Assembly (NCBI GenBank): GCA_029717555.1
Contig: JAMDHS010000024.1
Span: 124,001 to 188,000, forward strand
Direction of reading: 5' to 3'
Source: Peribolospora baueri
Taxonomy: Eukaryota
DNA length: 64,000 nucleotides
Shown here: one piece after another, positions 5,632 to 52,382 of the stretch
How positions within the stretch are numbered: position 1 is the first letter of the stretch
How the letters are laid out: every line of letters begins with the position of its first letter
The notes under the pieces: generated by a model
Database searches by the model: none
The model's input: the letters and a program-made list of their open reading frames with translations, nothing else
What the model was told of the DNA's origin: nothing
Translations under genes and position numbers: made by a program

Positions 5632-7574
5632 GGCGTGAGGAGTCTCGTTGGTGAGAGGGAGGGAGGAGTCGTTTTGCTGGTTCGGAAGCGGGAGGATAGC
5701 GGGCAGTCGGTCGATGTCCCAACGATTGGAATCGGCAGGTGGAGGTTTTCGTTTTGCCCGGTTTACCTTGTGGTCGCCGTCGCTCGTCGTCTGAAGCGGA
5801 GATGCGAAAGCAGTTGTTATGTTCAAGACGGACGTCGGTTCACAACGCGCTGCTCTCTCGTCTTTGCGCCTTTCCTGCGAGCGCTATTCTTACCATCGTA
5901 TCGCAAGCTGCCTTATTCCCCGTCTTTGTTGCAGCCCACTTAATAATGCAACTTTGTTGCAGTCGCGCCGACGGCCATAAAGTGATGGAACTGTTGGTGC
6001 CAGCGGCTCAGTTTTCTCACTGAGACGACGCACGCCAATAATAGGGGAGGAAACAGATTTCATTCGAGCCAGCATAGGAATGTTTGATGGTGGTGTGTTT
6101 TGACGGAGAAGAATAATGACTTGGGGCTGTGGCATGGCTGCGGCGAAACAGGACCGGCGAGACTACCGCGCCAGAAGCTCACTCTACATACATGACACAC
6201 GAGCAGACATGACAGAAAGCGTTACAGCCGGAGACAAGGAAAACGTTCGTCCGTCAGTTGGCTTACAAAAAACCAGGAAACAGAGGGGGGGGATTCAGAG
6301 GGGATTCAGAGTCGGGTACGCACTGGAGCGAGCGCGCATCTTTCTGCGCTTACGACGAAGGCGGCGCATGCGCTTCTTTCTCCACTTGTCCCTCATCGTG
6401 TCTGCGTCTGTAAAGGAAGGAGTGGAGCAAATACGAGAAAAGATGGTGACGACAAGACATCAAGGGCAGAGGAAAAGGGATCGATCGAGTCAGTCGTGTG
6501 AGCTCTGCCTCTCACTCGCCAGAACGAATCGAGCGCGACCTTAGGTCCGCCTCGACCTCCTGAAGCAGCGCTCCCATGCAGACAACGCCGTTGACAACGA
6601 TTCGCCTTGAACGGGAACGAGAGACGATCCACTCACGCAATTGAGGATAGACGAGACGAGGTACGGTGCAAGGACAGAAAGCGTCGTTCGAGTCCTCCCG
6701 CTTTTCGTCTCGTCTTAGACAACTGTCTGCCGCAGCGCGCTCGAGGCCTCGGCCACGGCTCGGCACGCGAGAAGTAACCCTAGTTCCGTGCAGCCGGGCG
6801 TCCGCTCAGTGCCGCGTCGCGCCGTCTGACATCACCACCGTCCCGTCCAACGCGCTCTGTCACTTCCCGCCCTCCCATCATCATGTCGACCCTCCATGAA
6901 CAAGGAATCCCTAACGGCCGGCTCTGCCGTCCTCTTCGAGCACCTTCCTCCGCAGATTCGCTCACCCTCATTTTTAATTTGCTAGCAATCAGCTAGACAT
7001 CTCGGCAGAGACCCACGGCTACCACGGCTGTGAGCCTCAGGCACAATGCCGAGGCGTCTTGAAGGACGTTGATCTAAGCTCTATTTCTTTCTACAGCATG
7101 GACGAGCCTGCGACATCTCTAGTCTGTGCCCTTCTGTGCTGATGGCTTCAGTACTGGGGTCTCTCGCTCGACTCTCCCAAGATGTGCCAAGGACGGCGGT
7201 TTGTATGCCGGAGTGGGAGATTTGTATGCCGAGAGCGCATCGCTGTGGGGTCGCTCGGCCCACTCGGATCTTGGCCTTTGCGGGAGATGTTGGTTGAGTG
7301 CCAACGCATTTTTACACCGCCCATTCCTCTTGAGCGATCTGGCAGGCATTCTTATAAAGGCTCTCTTCTCAGGACATCGCTCATGTTCACCACTTTTTTC
7401 CGCAAACCCCTCCCTTCCGCACTATCACACGGTCCGGTACCGTTTTCATCCTCTCGAATCTCCTGCTTTCCTTCGTTTCGAAGCTGTGCTTCTTTCCCGA
7501 GCTGTGCTCGATAGCCCTTTTCTCGCAACCCTCGCATCGCTTCACAGGCCTCGACGGTCCCCAGCTCTACCAAG

Positions 7575-44784: not shown

Positions 44785-47186
44785 ATGGCCTCTCCTCCGT
44801 CGGGGACGACGAGCGCACAGCGCAAGCCCTACATCCCGTCCGGCCTACGTTTCGATGGGGACCACCTTCCCTCCTTCGCATTCACTTCCACTTCGTCCCC
44901 TTTTTCCTCACCACCTCTCCTTCGTCACCTTGGACAAGACGCCGGCGCCATGGACGTCGATGCCGAGCGTGACTACGAAGGGGCAGAGAGCGACTCGGGC
45001 GCCAGCAGCTACCACTCCGCATCGGCCTTCAGCGAGCTCCCTCCCGAGCACTTCCTCAGCATCGGAAGAAAGGACTCCGGCAGTCCTATCGCATCCCTTC
45101 CTATGTCCGGCAGCCCACCACCTGCCGAAATGAGGATGGCGGACATCCCCGTCTCGCATTTCCTCTACCACAATCGCTCTTCCCCTCCGTCAGAGGTGGG
45201 CTCGAGTACCCCTTCCCTGTCCTCATCCTCCGCACCTCGTCCCGATGCGGCGCCGGACACAACCACCCTCGCAGCGGCGGACTTTGACATCGACGTGCGC
45301 TCCGGCTTCCTTCCCCCCGAAGAGCCTTTGAGGCGCCTCGGGGGGGCCTTCGTGGTGTGGGAGGAGGCACTCGAGGCAGGTTTGGGAACACAGAACGGTA
45401 GTGACGAAGGAGAGGCCGTTGCGGGCGCTGTGGGAAGGAGGACGGGAAAGATGGTCGGTTTGGGCGGCGGCGAGGCGGAGGAGGAGGAGAGGCAACGCGG
45501 TAGGGTGTGGCGAAAGGCAGTCAGGGAGGTGAGTTGTTCCCCTGCTGTATCCAGGATGAACACCCTGGCTGCGACCTTCAATCGCCATATTGACATAACA
45601 TTGGCTCTTTTGACTCTCGCTGGCTCGCCGTAGATGCCCATCCTACATCTTCCGCCTTCCTTCCAATTCGACATCCGCGCCCTCCGCCGAGCCTACGTCG
45701 TGCTCTCCTTCCTAGGCCACGCCTACATCCACTCTCAACCGCCTCCTGATCCTTCCTTCCGATCGGACGCTTCCCAGTGTCAAGACGAGGATGAGGCGGC
45801 CGAGCGCACCGGCTCATACCGCGCCACCGTTCCCCTTAGCATCGCTGTGCCATGGTTTCAGGCCAGTGAGAGATTGGGCCTTCCGCCGGTGCTGACGTAT
45901 TCCAGTACGGTCTTGTGGAATTGGAGGTTCAAGGATCCCAGGAAGGGATTGGTGGCGAGGTGAGAAGGACATCATTTTCTCGTTCCGCGTGGTCTACTCC
46001 GATGCCCTGTACTAACAGATTCGTCGTCACGTCCGTCCGCCCCTTCCAAAGCAACGTCGAGATCGCTCAGACATTCACGAACACCGCCTCCGAGCGGCAC
46101 TTCTACATCACATCTTTGCTCATCGAGCTTCGCGGAGTAGAGGCTTTGCGTCTGATGGCGCTGTCCCTTGACGAAGCCTTTGTGGGCGACTGTCTCGCCC
46201 GACGGCGTCTCGCTACCTACCTCTGCCGTCTCGCGGCGGTCATAGACGACCTGACGACCATCCTCGCCGATACTAGACGGGAATGCCTTCCTAGCGTGTT
46301 CTACCACGGCATTCGACCATGGTTCGTAGCGGGGGATGCAAACAAGGAGCTCTTGCCAGACGGAACAGAGCGCAAAGGATGGATTTTCCAAGGCATCCCG
46401 GACGAAGACGAGCCCTGGAGGAACAGGGTCGTTTCCGTCACAGGCCCTTCGGCGGGCCAGAGCTCGCTCATTCACGCCTTGGACTTGTTCCTCGACGTCG
46501 ACCATTCGGGGAACAAGCGCGGACACGGCACCCCGTCCGACACCAGCTCCCCAACTGAGACGGCCACGAAGGGCAAGGAGAAATCGTCGGGCTTGTCAGG
46601 CGGAGGCGACGAGACGTTCATGGCACGTATGAAGTTCTACATGCCCTACCACCATCGCGCGTTCCTCACCCACCTGGCCAACTCGACCTCCACCTCCGCC
46701 CGGCCATCCGAATACGAAGAACAACTGGACCGAGACGAGCACGTCATGGCAGAGCGCAGACACCCTATTCGATCTCTCGCCCAGGAAGATGACGACGACG
46801 GCCGAGATCGGGATGGGTTAGCCGAGTCGTACGACGAGGCGCTCCTCTCGCTCAAGAAGCTTAGGGACGAGCACATGCGCATCGTCGCGCTCTACATCAT
46901 CTCGCAGGCGAGGCTGCCTCCGCCCTCGGAGTACAGTACCTCGGAGGTCGTCCATGGCACCTCCTCTTCAGCGGCTGGGGCCGGGGGGATGCGCATGGAC
47001 GAAGATCGGACATCCTCCTCGAATGCGGGAACCGGCGGCTTTGCGCAGAAGACAAAGCAAAAGCTGGTCGGCACGGGTGGGACGGATTTGGTGAGCTTCC
47101 TCAAGATGAGCAGGCAGAACACGCTCGATGCCATGTTGACACCACTGGGTGGTGGGAGAAGAGGTGGAGGCGAGGAGGATGAATAG
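44785..47186 (+). CDS. BNA2: Indoleamine 2,3-dioxygenase; 3 exons, long N-terminal extension; start uncertain
   Basis: Contains SGFLPPEEPL, LRRAYVVLSFLGHAYIH, LGLPPVLTYSSTVLWNW, FYHGIRPWF, GPSAGQSSLIHALD, YMPYHHRAFL, LRDEHMRIVALYI (heme His) and GTGGTDL. Confidence 0.93.
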
Positions 47187-47504
47187 ATAGCGTACTGGTC
47201 CGGTCCGGTCCGGTACGGCGCGGTGGGGAGAGGTAGTTCGCCTTTTCGGCCGTAGTTTGCGCAAACTCGCTCTTAGCGCCCTTTCCATCTCCCCTAACCC
47301 TTCCTCCCGCCTCCCACGGGGTTGCTTGCTTGGTGAACTCAATTCGAGGGACACCGCCCACGGATACGACTTATATATGTACGTATAGAGCTTCAATAGA
47401 CCGCCATCGACCTTTTTGCAGCAAAGTCGCCGGCAGTGTTCATTGACAAGTACGTTTTAAGGGATTGATATTGCAAGGAAGCATGTGGCGCAAAAGATGG
47501 AAAG

Positions 47505-48328
47505 GTAGACTACTTTCAGCGCCCCTTCAGCCGAACGGAACTCAAAAGCGCTCATTCCCCACCTAGACCTGAGCTCCAGTGGGACCTCGGGTTACAGCGA
47601 TGCCAATTGGCACCCCTCTGCAACCCATCGACAGGGCACTGAAGAGAGGAGGAGAACTAGTCTACTATTTGAAGAGGGAAATGGTCTGCTTCACTGGCTC
47701 GGGGGGGAGGGTGTTGGAAGAAGCGATGATCGTCATCCCTAATGTTTCCCCCTCCCCATTCCCGCAGGAGCTGCCTAGACGGTTGAGCTCGAACGGGAAA
47801 TCCAAAGCGCAGAGGCACCAAATGGTAGCCGTTGCAACCCTGTTGGGGTGAAACACTAGGTCGGATCATCGAGAATGGAAGGATGGCAGCAGAGGTCTTT
47901 GGGTGGGAGATGGGAGAGGTTTTGGGGTGGGGTGGGAAAGGTCTACTTGGGCGGAGGGATGGGTTTGGAAGGAACGATGATTGTCATCCCTAGTGTCCTC
48001 ATTCCAGACGGAACCCAAAAGCGCCCATTCCCTACAAGAGGGCTGAGCTCCAATGGGACCTCCAGGGCGCAGGGACACCAAATGGTGCCCGTTGCGACCT
48101 GTTGGGGGAAACAGTAGGTCGGATGATCGCAAGTGTGTGTGTAGGGGTGAGGGAGGGCTTTTGTGTATCTATAGGGTTGGTCGTCATCCCTCGTGTCCTC
48201 ATTCCAGACGGAACCCAAGGGCGCCCATTCCCCACAAGGGGCCTGAGCTCCAATGGGACCTCCATAACGCAGGGGCACCAATTGGTACCCGTTGCGATCC
48301 GTTGGGGGAAACACGAGGTCAGATCATT
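47505..48328. repeat. Tandem array of four diverged ~145-160 bp inverted-repeat-bounded units separated by G-rich spacers (structured RNA or MITE-like)
   Basis: Core TGAGCTC with GAGCTC at 47571, 47785, 48045 and 48245. Units 47983-48128 and 48183-48328 align without gaps at 19/146 mismatches by hand count (period 200). Confidence 0.85.
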
Positions 48329-48980
48329 GTCGCTTCGCTTCGCCGTCGCTTGTGTGTGCACCTTGTTTGTTTGGGCCGCCCGCAAGTGCCGCCGGTGCTG
48401 CTGAACCCAAGACTGGTTATGCGACCGAAGTCGTGGGCCGGAGGAAGGTGTGATAGTCCGAGTGCCTCAGGGTGGGGCAGACCTTTGAAGATGATCAGGG
48501 CAACGCATTGCTGGTAGGAGGGCCTCAAACATGGCGAGGATGTGGGCACGTGTGCGAGAGTAGTATCGGGAGCGACGGCGGCAAGCAGGCTGAAGCGGTA
48601 GTGGTGCGCGAGGGCGGCCCAGGTCGGGTTTGTGTGAGAACGAGCGACCGGGTTGAGGCGGTAGTGGTGCACGAGGGCGGCATAAGCGTTCTGTGTGAGA
48701 ACAGGCGACCTGGCTGAAGCGGTAGTGATGGTGCGCGAGGGCGGCCTGGGTCGAGTTCTTTGAAAACATCGACGACTCTGGAATAGAATGGACGAGAGAT
48801 AGCACGTAAGACTTTCGTTCCCAAGAGTAAGAGCGGAGGGTTCTACTTCCCTCAGTACACTTACTTGATATGTGACAGGCATGTAGCCAGGATAGAGAAC
48901 CATCAGGCGCGCAGCAATGGTAAAGATGCCGAAGACATCAGGCGTTGGAGTGGGAGTAGGCGCAGGGTGATGGGTGGCAT
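48319..48980 (-). pseudogene. Possible degenerate or orphan spliced gene containing the 63-bp repeat
   Basis: Pyrimidine-rich leader, caccATG at 48980, and a canonical-looking intron 48864-48778 (GTAAGT...TTCCAG). The ATG frame has an early TGA and the repeat shifts frame. Confidence 0.3.
48588..48753. repeat. ~63-bp minisatellite, about 2.6 copies
   Basis: gg(c/t)tga(a/g)gcggtagtg(atg)gtgc(g/a)cgagggcggc recurs three times; tgtgtgagaac...gcgacc recurs twice. Confidence 0.85.
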
Positions 48981-49699
48981 GGTGTAAGGGTTATGGCGAA
49001 GCAGGAGGAGAGAGGAGAAGCCTTGCCGTTGACGGTTATGGAGAGGTAGGGAGAGAAGGCTTGTGGAGAGGAGAAGGCTTTTGGAGTGGAGTGGAGTGGA
49101 TTGGAGTGAAGATGTAGGGAGAACAGGCGGGGAACGGAGCCTTTCTTATACTTTTCTCCGTGGGACTGGAGCGCTCTTCGTCGATGACAAGAACCTTTGT
49201 TGAGTGTGAGTGAAACCGTATCCCACGTTGCATGCCCCTCAGACGGCCAGCGCCCTTTGCGACGCGCTCGGAACTCCTATCCTGCCAGTCTCTCCACACG
49301 ACGGTGCTTGATTATGGAATGGAGATCGTCAGATTTGTTCGTCACCCTTTTCGGAGTGTAAGGCCCGGACAGAGGGTGGACCTGGACAGGAGCTAACGAC
49401 GCTGTCATCTCTTTTTAGAAACTTTTCCGCGAACAATCGAAAACGACGATGGCAAGATGAGGATGATGGCACGTTATTTGATTCACGAGGTGGGGGGGAA
49501 TTAGACACTGAGACATTGAATGAACGAATGCGGGCAAGTCAGCCCGGATCGGGGCTCGTCGGACCGCATCGACTCGAGAAGAGAGGTCAAGGGAAAAAAA
49601 AAAAAAAGAAAAGGTGGCACGGCAAAAGAGACGGTGTGAGGCCAAGGAGGCGGTGTGCCAGGCCGTCTCCGCCTTTCTCTATTCGGAGGTCTTCCATAT

Positions 49700-52382
49700 T
49701 CACTTCTTGAGGGTGCCGCTGAAATGCGTCAAGGAGAGCGAAGACGGGAAGGAGGTCGTGTCAGCCCTAGAGAACAATACGATTCTGAGCGCGGAATTGG
49801 CAAAGGAGAAGGAGCCGCCAGCTCACATGATGCTGTCAGGTGCGTACCTGATAGGAAGCGGAGAGCGAAGAGAAACACATAGCGAGCGGTCAGTAAAGCG
49901 GAGCGAAGACGCGCGCAAACGCTTTTGCGGAGTGCGTGTTCCATTCAACCGATCCGGAGACTCACTTCTTGATGACGCTGGGATCGTGCTGAGGGTGCGT
50001 GAACAAGCACAAGACGGGAGACGACGAGTGAGCGACACGCGTAACATGAGACAAAAGCACAAGCGGGCTCACCAGCATGTTGAACTCCTCCGAAGCGTCC
50101 CGGCCCTTGTAGAGCAAGATAGCCTTGGGTCCGCCGGGGTGATCGGGCAAGAACTTGGTGACGTCGAGCACCTGACCGTTGACGGCGACCCACACGTCGT
50201 CGTCCTTGTTGTGCTTGGCCACATCATCCAGGCTGTACTCCTTCAGCTCTTTCTCCCCGCTCTCCGTCTTCTGCTTCTGCTGCGGGGCACTCGTCTGCGT
50301 CGGAGCGGGGCTCTGAGCGGGCACCGCGGCGGTTTGGGAGGCCAACGGGCCGGCGGCATCGGAGGGGGACGAGGAAACGTCGAACTGGATGGTCAGCTTC
50401 TTGCTCTCCGGGTCCACGACGACGTTGGTGCGGATGTGGGAGGAGACCTGCTCCAGACGGCGCGTGGCGACCTGACCCGCGCTGAGGTCCTTGAGCAAGT
50501 AGGACGAGGCGGCCTCGCCGGCGATGCGGCCGAAAACGACACAGCCGAGGAGGGAGGAGCCGCCGAGTCGGTTGGCGCCGTGTACGCCACCGGCGATCTC
50601 TCCGGCGAGGAAGAGACCGGGGATGGGCTTCTTGTCAGGGAAGAGCGCCTCGGCTTTGTCCGAGGTAGCAGCACCGCCCATGGTGAAGTGCAGGACAGGC
50701 GTCATGAGTGCGACATGGAACGTGTCATCCATACGGAACTTGCCGCCGTGGAAAAAGCGCTTGCCGAAGGGGTCCTTTTTCTTTCCATCGACAATGTCGT
50801 TGTACTCGTCGAACGACTTCTTGAGCGTCTCGGGGGAAATGCCGATCTCTTTGGCCACCTCGGCGCCGGAGATGAATTTCTTCATGAGACCGCGACCGGT
50901 GTAGTGCTGTGGGAGGACATATCGTTGTGGAGCACGACAGGTGCGGGAAGTCAAATTTCAGGGACATGATTATGATCAAGAAAGCAAGAGACAAGGCTCA
51001 CCTTGCAGTGCCACTCAATCTCCTTAGAACTCGCGCCGTTGAGGACGAGTCGAATCGGGTGATTTTTGTTCTCCCAAATGCGACCGGTAACATAGTCTCG
51101 GTGTCCGAGCTCGTCAGCGAAACGCTGACCCTTGCTGTCGAGGAGGAGACCACCGACACCGCGGAGGGCCTCGGCAGCAAGGAACTTGACCTTGGCGTCG
51201 GCGTCATTGGGGTCCTGGAGACCGGTCGGGTGCACTTGCACCTTCTCCATGTCGACGAGGTTGCCTCCAATGGCCTCGACCATCTTCTGACCGTCACCCG
51301 TGCAGTGGTCTCCGTTGGTAGTGGGCAGAGGCAAAAGCTCGGGCCTGTACCTCTTGAGAAGCGAGTCGGACGAGTTAAAGTCGGCAGCGTAGCCGCCAGT
51401 GGCAAGGATAACGGGGCCGAACTCCTTGTGAGTGCCGCCTTCGTGCTCGTACTCGACTCCCTGTACCTTGCCGCCCTCGTAAATGAGCTTGGTCACGCGC
51501 GCCTTGCGGATGATCTGAATCCGAGTGGGATCCGTCTCGGCGAGATCCTCAAGCTTCTCCATTTGGGCGTAGGTAATCGTCTAAGAGGGAGAACCGGATA
51601 ACATGCATTAGACGAGGAGCCGTGGCACTGCGAGTCGATGCGTCCAATAACGCACCATTCCGGGGAACATTTGGCTACCTCGGTGGGTCCTGGGCTGGGA
51701 GTGTCCGCCGAGGCGGGAAACCTTGCTGAGATCGAGCTTGAAGCGGTCCTGCAGTATCGAATGGACGTCCCTCAGTGTCAGCCGGCACTCCTCACGGTGG
51801 GACCGTCGTCAAGCAAATACACACCTGAAGCCAGTTGACAGCATCGGCGGACTTGTACGTCAAGGCCTTAATGAGGTCGGGCCTGGCGAGGTCACGGGCC
51901 GACTTGAGGGTATCATCGTAGAAGATCTTGGCAGTGTCGGGGATCTCGAGGGTCTGCTGACTCTGCGTGCCGGCTCCGTTGATACCAGAGGTGGCCTTGG
52001 TCGAGTTGCCGCCACTGCGAGACGATGGAAGTCACATCAGCAGGCGGCTCAAAGACGAGCCAAAAATGGACTCTGATGTTGCTTACAAGAAAGGGTTCTG
52101 CATCCGACAATAGGAGAGAAAAGAGGGTAAGAAACGAGTGATGAGCACAGGTGGGGGAAGGAGGAGGGGGATGGCTTCTCGATCGCTCGCGTTAGACGCA
52201 CCTTGTCGAGGACGAGGACGTTGGCGCCACGCTCGTAGAGGGTGTGGGCCGCCGAAAGACCGGCAAGACCTATTGATGCGGTGGGCAGAAGAGGGGAAGC
52301 TGAGCGCGAAGGACGGAGGAGAAGGTCAGTGCCGATGGGACGACTCACCACCGCCAACGACGATGACCTTGGAGTTGCTCAT
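49700..52382 (-). CDS. OSM1: Soluble FAD-dependent fumarate reductase (flavocytochrome c, Osm1/Frd1 family) fused to a C-terminal cytochrome b5 domain; multi-exon
   Basis: Contains VIVVGGG-LAGLSAA, GGNSTKATSGING, LATGGYAADF, FLAAEALRGVGG, HFTMGG and GGVHGANRLGGSSLLGCVVFG. The b5 domain reads WVAVNGQVLDVTKFLPDHPGG...FNMLHD. Confidence 0.93.

What the first reader, a model, noticed from the sequence alone, without database searches (positions are those of the whole stretch)
47505..48328. Tandem array of self-complementary ~150-nt units with compensatory changes: candidate structured-RNA array or MITE cluster
Seen: four related units lie between the convergent IDO and fumarate reductase genes, each closed by its own inverted repeat. 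Unit 4 has cctcgtgt...acacgagg (perfect), unit 3 cctagtgt...acagtagg, and unit 2 gatgatc..cctaatgtttcccc...ggggtgaaacactagg..gatcatc. The most diverged unit 1 has a different nested pair (gtagacta/tagtctac at 47505/47658, cttcag/ctgaag inside). Internal hairpins co-vary: cct-acaag-agg (unit 3) vs ccc-acaag-ggg (unit 4), and cacca-aa-tggtg (unit 3) vs tgcca-at-tggca (unit 1). A TGAGCTC core is invariant. Inference: pairing is kept while sequence drifts, as expected for a multi-stem RNA repeated in one precursor, or for clustered non-autonomous TIR elements. I could not match it to any RNA family I know.
Basis: partly seen in the sequence, partly recalled or inferred. Interest (0 to 1): 0.8.

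Follow-up and report, generated by a model that had tools for sequence, protein, structure and literature searches.

The report
Dispersed hairpin-rich short repeat, locally tandem
The four self-complementary units are real, but they are copies of a short non-coding repeat scattered through this fungal genome and a relative's, so this is most likely an ordinary small mobile or satellite-like repeat and not a special RNA locus.

Summary
Four related ~150-nt units lie head to tail at 47505-48328, between an IDO gene (+) and a fumarate-reductase/cytochrome-b5 gene (-). Each unit is closed by its own inverted repeat, and the TGAGCTC core is invariant.

The locus is not unique. Contigs of public DNA runs of the same organism and of a relative pile up on the units at about 5-19 times the flanking depth. 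The organism's own contigs break at the array. Long contigs with unrelated flanks carry single copies at about 83-90% identity.

No Rfam family, tRNA or known ribozyme matches. On the + strand, covariation among the four units does not exceed shuffles. On the - strand, pairing is better kept and wobble pairs are commoner. This signal is weak and partly explained by base composition.

The inverted repeat lies about 35-40 nt inside one end of the repeated unit. No target-site duplication was seen, so "MITE" is a resemblance, not a shown membership.

Verdict: a new member of a known kind, of low to moderate interest. A minus-strand structured RNA carried by the repeat is not excluded.

The parts
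47505..47665 (-). Unit 1, the most diverged copy. It shares the family core (about 47535-47625) but has its own long closing stem: gtagacta/tagtctac, cagcgcccc/gggcactg and cttcag/ctgaag.
   Evidence: D3, D6, I16; MFE -50.2 on +, -71.0 on -
47726..47872 (-). Unit 2. It has the longest terminal inverted repeat (about 25-33 nt, 73-80% complementary to the 3' arms of the family). Its 5' half is diverged.
   Evidence: (D2, D4, I1, I2)
47976..48128 (-). Unit 3, the copy closest to most of the copies found elsewhere.
   Evidence: D1; summed depth 2168.6 against 116.6 in the flank at 47970-48076 in X1
48178..48328 (-). Unit 4, with a perfect 8-bp closing stem.
   Evidence: (D1)
47941..47975 (-). G-rich leader of unit 3 (a C-rich tail on the - strand). 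It belongs to the repeated element: it resembles the stretches before u2 (47702-47725) and u4 (48143-48177), and a solitary copy elsewhere starts matching at 47942.
   Evidence: D5, D9; record 4 covers 47942-48113; inserted letters in table 5c carry the same leader
47893..47944 (.). Tandem duplication of 24 nt (2.2 copies) inside the spacer between u2 and u3.
48329..48457 (.). Stretch after unit 4 that is also multi-copy elsewhere.
   Evidence: depth 881.7 against about 116 in X1; records 5, 6, 13 and 20 cover 48251-48556 in part
48588..48745 (.). Tandem repeat with a 63-nt period (2.5 copies), also multi-copy in the genome. It is part of the same repeat island.
   Evidence: depth 583-791 against about 116 in X1; D4, D8, D9
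49161..49213 (.). Short separate dispersed repeat at the far edge of the island. Loose ends fall at 49161/49165 in three of the four runs (X1, X2, X3) and at 49213 in all four.
   Evidence: table 7; depth 545 against 111 in X1
45915..47186 (+). Last large exon of the IDO gene. It marks the left border of the intergenic region.
   Evidence: (PF01231, E 2.1e-71)
49962..50954 (-). 3' part of the fumarate-reductase-like flavocytochrome gene (FAD_binding_2 plus Cyt-b5). It marks the right border of the intergenic region.

Best explanation
The four units are copies of a short, non-coding, hairpin-rich repeat. The repeated unit is about 150 nt of core plus a G-rich stretch of about 35-40 nt on one side, roughly 190 nt in all. 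The family is present in many copies elsewhere in the same roughly 23-Mb basidiomycete genome and in a related organism. At this locus four copies lie head to tail inside a 1.8-kb island of several repeat kinds (about 47435-49253), between two convergent housekeeping genes.

The most likely mechanism is inferred, not shown. A small non-autonomous mobile element inserted here, then multiplied locally by unequal exchange or replication slippage, or inserted repeatedly, giving a short satellite-like array. The stems are features of the element itself. They could be inverted repeats used at the DNA level, or the fold of an RNA intermediate read from the - strand. The class of element is unresolved between a MITE-like DNA element and an RNA-derived, SINE-like element. 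The dispersal and the repeat island are shown. Mobility, the mechanism of spread and any transcription are inferred.
For: - In run X1 of the window's own organism, summed depth is 116.6 and 110.8 in the gene flanks. It rises to 568.6-641 on u1 and u2, 2168.6 at 47970-48076 and 1349.1 at 48184-48290.
- 94 contig pieces were laid on 3.2 kb, and 28% of them run on into unlike sequence.
- 12 contigs cover position 47982.
- The organism's own contigs stop at 47771 and resume at 48719.
- A 26,580-nt contig holds an internal copy at its positions 7365-7531, matching 47942-48113 with 17 differences and 5 gaps.
- An 8,677-nt contig ends in a copy matching 47572-47742.
- Runs X3 and X4 of the relative show the same pattern: flank depth 76.6, unit depth up to 1684.8, and copies inside contigs of 22,399 and 32,239 nt. 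Syntenic contigs also break at the island (46900-47561 and 48719-50100).

Other support:
- Units within the array are no more alike (75-87%) than they are to copies elsewhere (about 83-90%).
- There is no coding signal: the 200-nt spacing is not a multiple of 3, and the four ORFs across the array have no Pfam hit.
- No known RNA family matches.
- + strand covariation is not above shuffles.
Against: - No copy outside the window could be read base by base, so ends, target-site duplications and empty sites are unknown.
- Read laying warns that summed depth is not a copy number, so the figures of 5-19 times are rough.
- The inverted repeat is not at the very end of the repeated unit on one side.
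- u1 keeps the core but has a different closing stem. This is the reverse of what MITE families usually show.
- No transposase lies in the window: 0 of the 40 ORFs scanned.
- On the - strand, pairing is kept better than in shuffles: 88.8% against 85.1%, reached by 1 of 500 shuffles, with 7 double changes against 2.3. Wobble cells favour the - strand 17 to 4. This is not expected of a purely DNA-level element.
- Some of the extra copies could lie in a few arrays and not at many separate sites.
Confidence: 0.7

Rival explanations
1. A multi-copy gene family, or an RNA-derived retroposon, for a structured RNA of about 150-190 nt read from the - strand. That is the strand of the fumarate-reductase gene and opposite to the first reader's reading. 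The RNA would have a long closing stem and two internal hairpins, followed by a C-rich tail. Copies would spread through the RNA or by gene duplication, in arrays and singly.
For: - The - strand MFE is lower in 4 of 4 units: -71.0, -64.1, -60.3 and -68.5 against -50.2, -56.5, -57.6 and -62.6 kcal/mol.
- The - strand structure is 88.8% paired with 7 double changes and a covariation score of 0.291, reached by 0 of 500 shuffles. The + strand is 78.5% paired.
- In helices common to both strands' folds, G.U cells number 17 on the - strand against 4 on the + strand, or 8 against 1 with u3 as source.
- By pairs the count is 13 against 4, p = 0.035.
- u1 keeps a long closing stem of unrelated sequence.
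- On the - strand the element starts at the closing stem and ends in an unstructured tail.
- The half that is 3' on the - strand has more depth (2168.6 against 478.5), as 5' truncation would give.
Against: - There are only four sequences, and they are related. The tool itself warns that relatedness alone can beat the shuffles.
- The units are A+C-rich on the + strand in paired and unpaired columns alike (0.535 and 0.557). That skew alone predicts about 1.5 to 1 in favour of - strand wobble.
- 11-21% of cells are unpaired.
- Copies differ by 13-25%.
- No Rfam family matches and no tRNA-like part was found.
- I saw no pol III A/B boxes and no T-run terminator (by eye).
- No RNA data could be obtained.
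Confidence: 0.17
2. A canonical MITE: a deletion derivative of a TIR DNA transposon, moved by a transposase encoded elsewhere, with four insertions clustered here.
For: u2 has arms of about 25-33 nt at 73-80% complementarity. The element is small and non-coding, and copies are dispersed in two genomes.
Against: - Homology among copies extends about 35-40 nt outside the 5' arm.
- No direct repeat flanks any of the four units (read).
- The units lie head to tail with related spacers, as tandem multiplication gives (D5; joint 47871 to 47962).
- u1 has other ends.
- No partner transposase is known.
Confidence: 0.25
3. A locus-specific array of a structured RNA processed from one + strand precursor.
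For: The array has uniform orientation. Individual compensatory changes exist. The array lies 320 nt downstream of the IDO stop codon.
Against: The family is dispersed. + strand covariation is not above shuffles: 68 of 500 shuffles reach it for double changes and 42 of 500 for the share paired. The + strand folds are the weaker ones in 4 of 4 units. No Rfam match.
Confidence: 0.03

Closest known systems
Fungal MITEs (for example mimp of Fusarium and Guest of Neurospora; names recalled, not from a call)
   Same: Small (about 100-250 nt), non-coding, with inverted repeats near the ends that fold into a hairpin. Tens of dispersed copies, often found in intergenic DNA.
   Different: Here the inverted repeat is sub-terminal on one side. 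No TSD was seen and no partner transposase is known. One copy has the same core with different arms. Copies stand head to tail.
TE-derived short tandem arrays scattered in gene-rich DNA (oyster satellitome PMC8268682, Tribolium TCAST-like elements PMC3411249, double TE insertions PMC5932611, review PMC12628747; I saw only the search listing and the starts of the abstracts)
   Same: Short arrays of a unit of about 150-200 nt that also occurs singly or in other short arrays at many sites, near genes.
   Different: Those cases are in animals. I found no report for Ustilaginomycotina or Exobasidiomycetes. The two searches listed 4 papers, and none reports such a family by its title or abstract start. 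The parent element here is unknown.
SINEs and other RNA-derived short retroposons (general knowledge, recalled)
   Same: Strand-specific structure, a structured head followed by a simple-sequence tail, and possibly more 3' than 5' parts.
   Different: No pol III boxes, no tRNA, 5S or 7SL relationship, no A-rich tail, and TSDs were not testable.
Self-cleaving ribozyme satellites and retrozymes (general knowledge, recalled)
   Same: Tandem units of about 150-350 nt with a conserved fold.
   Different: No hammerhead, HDV, twister, pistol, hatchet or other Rfam ribozyme model matched at E of 10 or better in 46500-49500.

Membership tests
MITE (non-autonomous TIR DNA transposon) | Inverted repeats at the very termini of the mobile unit | tested here: inconclusive
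   Inverted arms are present. However, homology among copies runs about 35-40 nt beyond the 5' arm (record 4 and table 5c). The true ends could not be mapped because no other copies could be read.
MITE (non-autonomous TIR DNA transposon) | Target-site duplication flanking each copy | tested here: not met
   No direct repeat abuts the arms of u2, u3 or u4 (read). The TGGAAG found near both sides of u2 is part of the shared leader. Dispersed copies could not be examined.
MITE (non-autonomous TIR DNA transposon) | Many dispersed copies, small size, no coding capacity | tested here: met
   depth, number of contigs, copies inside long contigs with unlike flanks; no Pfam hit on the ORFs across the array.
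MITE (non-autonomous TIR DNA transposon) | Autonomous partner with the same ends | not testable with these tools
   No genome is held for this window. No transposase among the 40 window ORFs scanned.
Known RNA families (Rfam 15, including snoRNAs, snRNAs, ribozymes, SRP, 5S) | Match to a covariance model at or near the gathering score | tested here: not met
   0 matches in the whole window at the gathering threshold; 5 matches at E 4.2-6.8, scoring 12-18 bits against thresholds of 40-83, all to animal miRNA or lncRNA models.
tRNA-derived SINE | tRNA-like head with A and B boxes | tested here: not met
   ARAGORN found 0 genes in the window. I saw no convincing A or B box on either strand by eye.
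Structured RNA in general | Significant covariation supporting a common fold | tested here: inconclusive
   The + strand is not above shuffles. The - strand is above shuffles and has a wobble bias. There are only 4 related sequences, and a composition skew explains part of the bias.
Tandem (mini)satellite | Head-to-tail copies with related spacers, and a copy number that varies between relatives | tested here: inconclusive
   The head-to-tail layout is met. Joints in the relative's contigs (47871 to 48143, and 47712 to 47788) could be array-length variants, or they could come from other loci.

The most novel reading that the evidence does not exclude
The repeat carries a lineage-specific structured RNA read from the - strand: a Y-shaped fold with a closing stem of about 25 bp and two hairpins. 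Either the RNA fold drives the element's spread (a new SINE-like or retrozyme-like class in Ustilaginomycotina), or it is a multi-copy functional RNA gene family arranged singly and in arrays.
Probability: 0.17. Interest if true: 0.6.

Novelty: new member of a known kind. Interest (0 to 1): 0.27.

Why it matters
If the main reading is right, this is an uncatalogued small repeat family of a poorly sampled basidiomycete lineage. It is useful for repeat annotation, and it explains why short-read assemblies break here. It does not change any view of biology.

It would matter more if the - strand structural bias holds up when all copies are aligned. Small structured RNAs that ride on, or act as, mobile repeats are hardly known in fungi of this group. 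A family with both tandem and dispersed copies would make a convenient test case.

Tried and rejected
- Whole-genome search: no genome is held for this window.
- Metagenome scan with a 20-nt core pattern: 12 loci, each matching only 20-32 nt around the pattern and nothing else of the unit. I treat these as chance matches that yielded no relatives.
- RNA evidence: no RNA holder was listed by the look-up of sequencing runs, so expression could not be examined.
- Earlier findings of this scan: nothing by place or by sequence. A word search returned only unrelated bacterial and viral cases (after a call with too many words).
- Literature: two searches for MITEs in Ustilaginomycotina and Exobasidiomycetes listed 4 papers, and none reports such a family by its title or abstract start.
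- C/D-box and H/ACA snoRNA readings, checked by eye on both strands. There is no RUGAUGA/CUGA pair at the ends. The ACA three nt before the end and ACAAGA as an H box fit only some units, and the paired ends contradict the H/ACA layout.
- Hammerhead core: CUGAUGA is absent on both strands.
- Bacterial-type promoter and terminator scan: uninformative for a fungus.
- Strand-biased mutation as the sole cause of the wobble bias: not settled. The spacers have the opposite skew (A+C 0.22-0.33 on +), while the units are A+C-rich in paired and unpaired columns alike.
- Singleton-substitution polarity analysis: too few and too ambiguous to use.

Full report
**What is there.** The window is ordinary nuclear DNA of a fungus. 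ORFs carry WD40, prenyltransferase, ketol-acid reductoisomerase, TPP-enzyme, PPIP5K and sirohaem-synthase domains. GC content is 53-62%. The IDO fragment's best relatives are Ustilaginomycotina and Exobasidiomycetes (Ceraceosorus, Jaminaea, Exobasidium, Tilletiaria, Malassezia), at only 41-48% identity. The organism is therefore a basidiomycete with no close relative in that protein collection.

IDO (+) ends at 47186. A FAD_binding_2 plus cytochrome-b5 flavocytochrome gene (-) ends at 49962. The finding lies in the 2.8-kb gap between these convergent genes.

**The observation.** Four related units lie head to tail: u1 47505-47665, u2 47726-47872, u3 47976-48128 and u4 48178-48328.
- u3 and u4 are 87% identical over 150 nt. 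u2 shares the 3' two thirds with them, and u1 shares the central core.
- Three core motifs each had 3 matches in the window, all inside the array, against 0.00-0.01 expected from shuffles.
- A profile of the four units finds only these four in the 64 kb.
- The units fold better than dinucleotide shuffles: z is -1.9 to -3.4 on the + strand and -1.9 to -4.5 on the - strand.

**The locus is not unique.** No genome is held for the window, so I used public runs. Four DNA runs from one study hold the region. X1 and X2 (organism A) hold 0.92 of the sampled words. X3 and X4 (organism B) hold 0.32-0.35. Each run has about 23 million letters of contigs.

I laid the contigs on 46900-50100 at 80% or more likeness.
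- In X1 the gene flanks have depth 116.6 and 110.8.
- The units reach 568.6 (u1), 641 (u2), 2168.6 (47970-48076, u3) and 1349.1 (48184-48290, u4).
- The rest of the island, 48291-49253, stands at 177-882.
- 94 pieces were laid in X1, and 28% of them run on into unlike sequence.
- 12 contigs cover position 47982.
- The organism's own long contigs end at 47771 and restart at 48719, as assemblies do at repeats.
- Long contigs from elsewhere carry copies. A 26,580-nt contig matches 47942-48113 at its positions 7365-7531 (17 differences, 5 gaps). An 8,677-nt contig matches 47572-47742 at its end (28 differences, 2 gaps).
- Organism B shows the same: flank depth 76.6, unit depth up to 1684.8, and copies inside contigs of 22,399 and 32,239 nt. 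Its syntenic contigs break at the same island.

The tool warns that summed depth is not a copy number. I take the ratios only as "several to some tens of copies", and I rest the claim of dispersal on the separate contigs with unlike flanks. Only the longest pieces were listed (622 further rows were not shown), so I could not read other copies in full.

**What the repeated unit is.** Copies elsewhere share not only the 150-nt core but also the G-rich stretch before it. The solitary copy starts matching at 47942. Letters inserted at joints carry the same ...TTTGGAAGGAAC... leader (table 5c). The stretches before u2, u3 and u4 are alike (D5).

The unit is therefore about 190 nt, and the inverted repeat is sub-terminal on that side. 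u1 has the family core but a different and longer closing stem. I saw no direct repeat flanking any unit.

Joints such as 47871 to 47962 (in X1, X2 and X3) and 47871 to 48143 (in X3 and X4) indicate unit-spacer-unit arrangements with other spacer lengths. These come either from other loci or from array-length variants at this locus.

The island also contains a 63-nt tandem repeat (48588-48745) and a 53-nt repeat (49161-49213). Both are multi-copy too.

**RNA tests.**
- Rfam at gathering thresholds finds nothing in the window.
- A permissive Rfam search of 46500-49500 gives five chance-level hits to animal miRNA and lncRNA models, and no ribozyme, snoRNA or snRNA.
- ARAGORN finds no tRNA-like gene.
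- On the + strand, u4's fold mapped onto the four units is 78.5% paired against 76.6% in shuffles (reached by 42 of 500). It has 5 pairs with double changes against 3.0 (68 of 500).
- On the - strand, the corresponding test gives 88.8% against 85.1% (1 of 500), 7 double changes against 2.3 (1 of 500), and a covariation score of 0.291 against 0.199 (0 of 500).
- The - strand MFE is lower in 4 of 4 units.
- In the 39 pairs common to both strands' folds of u4, the other three units have 17 cells that are G.U on the - strand against 4 on the + strand. With u3 as source the count is 8 against 1. Counted by pairs it is 13 against 4, p = 0.035.

Three caveats apply. There are only four related sequences, and the tool states that relatedness alone can beat its shuffles. 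The units are A+C-rich on the + strand in paired and unpaired columns alike (0.535 and 0.557), which by itself predicts about 1.5 to 1 in the same direction. A singleton-substitution analysis was too ambiguous to help.

I read this as a weak hint that, if any single strand is under structural constraint, it is the - strand. On that strand the element would begin at the closing stem and end in a C-rich tail. Its 3' half is the more abundant one (2168.6 against 478.5), which would fit an RNA-derived element.

**Conclusion.** The finding is a short dispersed repeat family with a local four-copy tandem array inside a repeat island. I put the chance of this general reading at about 0.7.

Within that reading the class is open. 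A MITE-like DNA element fits the inverted arms and the dispersal, but it fails on the terminal position of the arms and on TSDs. A - strand RNA-derived element or RNA gene family has weak structural and layout support and no promoter or expression evidence. A locus-specific + strand RNA array is unlikely (about 0.03).

Short TE-derived arrays scattered near genes are known from animals (listings only). I found nothing on such elements for this fungal group in two searches.

**What remains open.** The exact ends, TSDs, total copy number, partner element and transcription are all unknown. They need the full assemblies and RNA data, which were not available here.

Noticed in passing
window 48588-48745: Tandem repeat with a 63-nt period, 2.5 copies, 80% matches. 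In the organism's own runs it has 5-7 times the flank depth, so it is a second multi-copy family in the same island.
   Followed up: partly
window 49161-49213: Repeat of about 53 nt. Loose ends fall at 49161/49165 in three of the four runs (X1, X2, X3) and at 49213 in all four. Depth is about 4.7 times the flank. It is a separate small dispersed repeat at the edge of the island.
   Followed up: no
window 47192-47218: (GGTCC)n / (GTACGGTCCG)n microsatellite directly after the IDO stop codon. The relative (X3, X4) differs at many positions between 47214 and 47234.
   Followed up: no
window 47746-48005: Run X1, the best holder of the window, differs from the window inside the spacer between u2 and u3: three small deletions at 47873-47879 and substitutions at 47889, 47925 and 47926. 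It also reads C where the window has T at 47982. The array therefore differs between the run and the assembly, through strain difference or assembly error in the repeat.
   Followed up: no
window 47712-48143 (joints in X3, X4): The relative's contigs join 47871 to 48143 and 47712 to 47788. This suggests the relative has a shorter array or a different unit set, but the contigs could come from other loci.
   Followed up: no
window 44785-47186: The IDO gene is split over at least two ORFs. 44785-45633 matches positions 2-54 of the Pfam profile and 45915-47186 matches positions 139-411, so the gene has at least one intron. The best homologues are only 41-48% identical, so the lineage is poorly sampled.
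   Followed up: partly
window 49594-49608: Run of about 15 A in the 3' region downstream of the fumarate-reductase gene (a T run on the - strand).
   Followed up: no
window 47603-47612 and 48278-48287: The tip of the conserved hairpin is the palindrome CCAATTGG (CCAAATGG in u2 and u3), which amounts to two inverted CCAAT motifs. Whether this is a protein-binding site is unknown.
   Followed up: no
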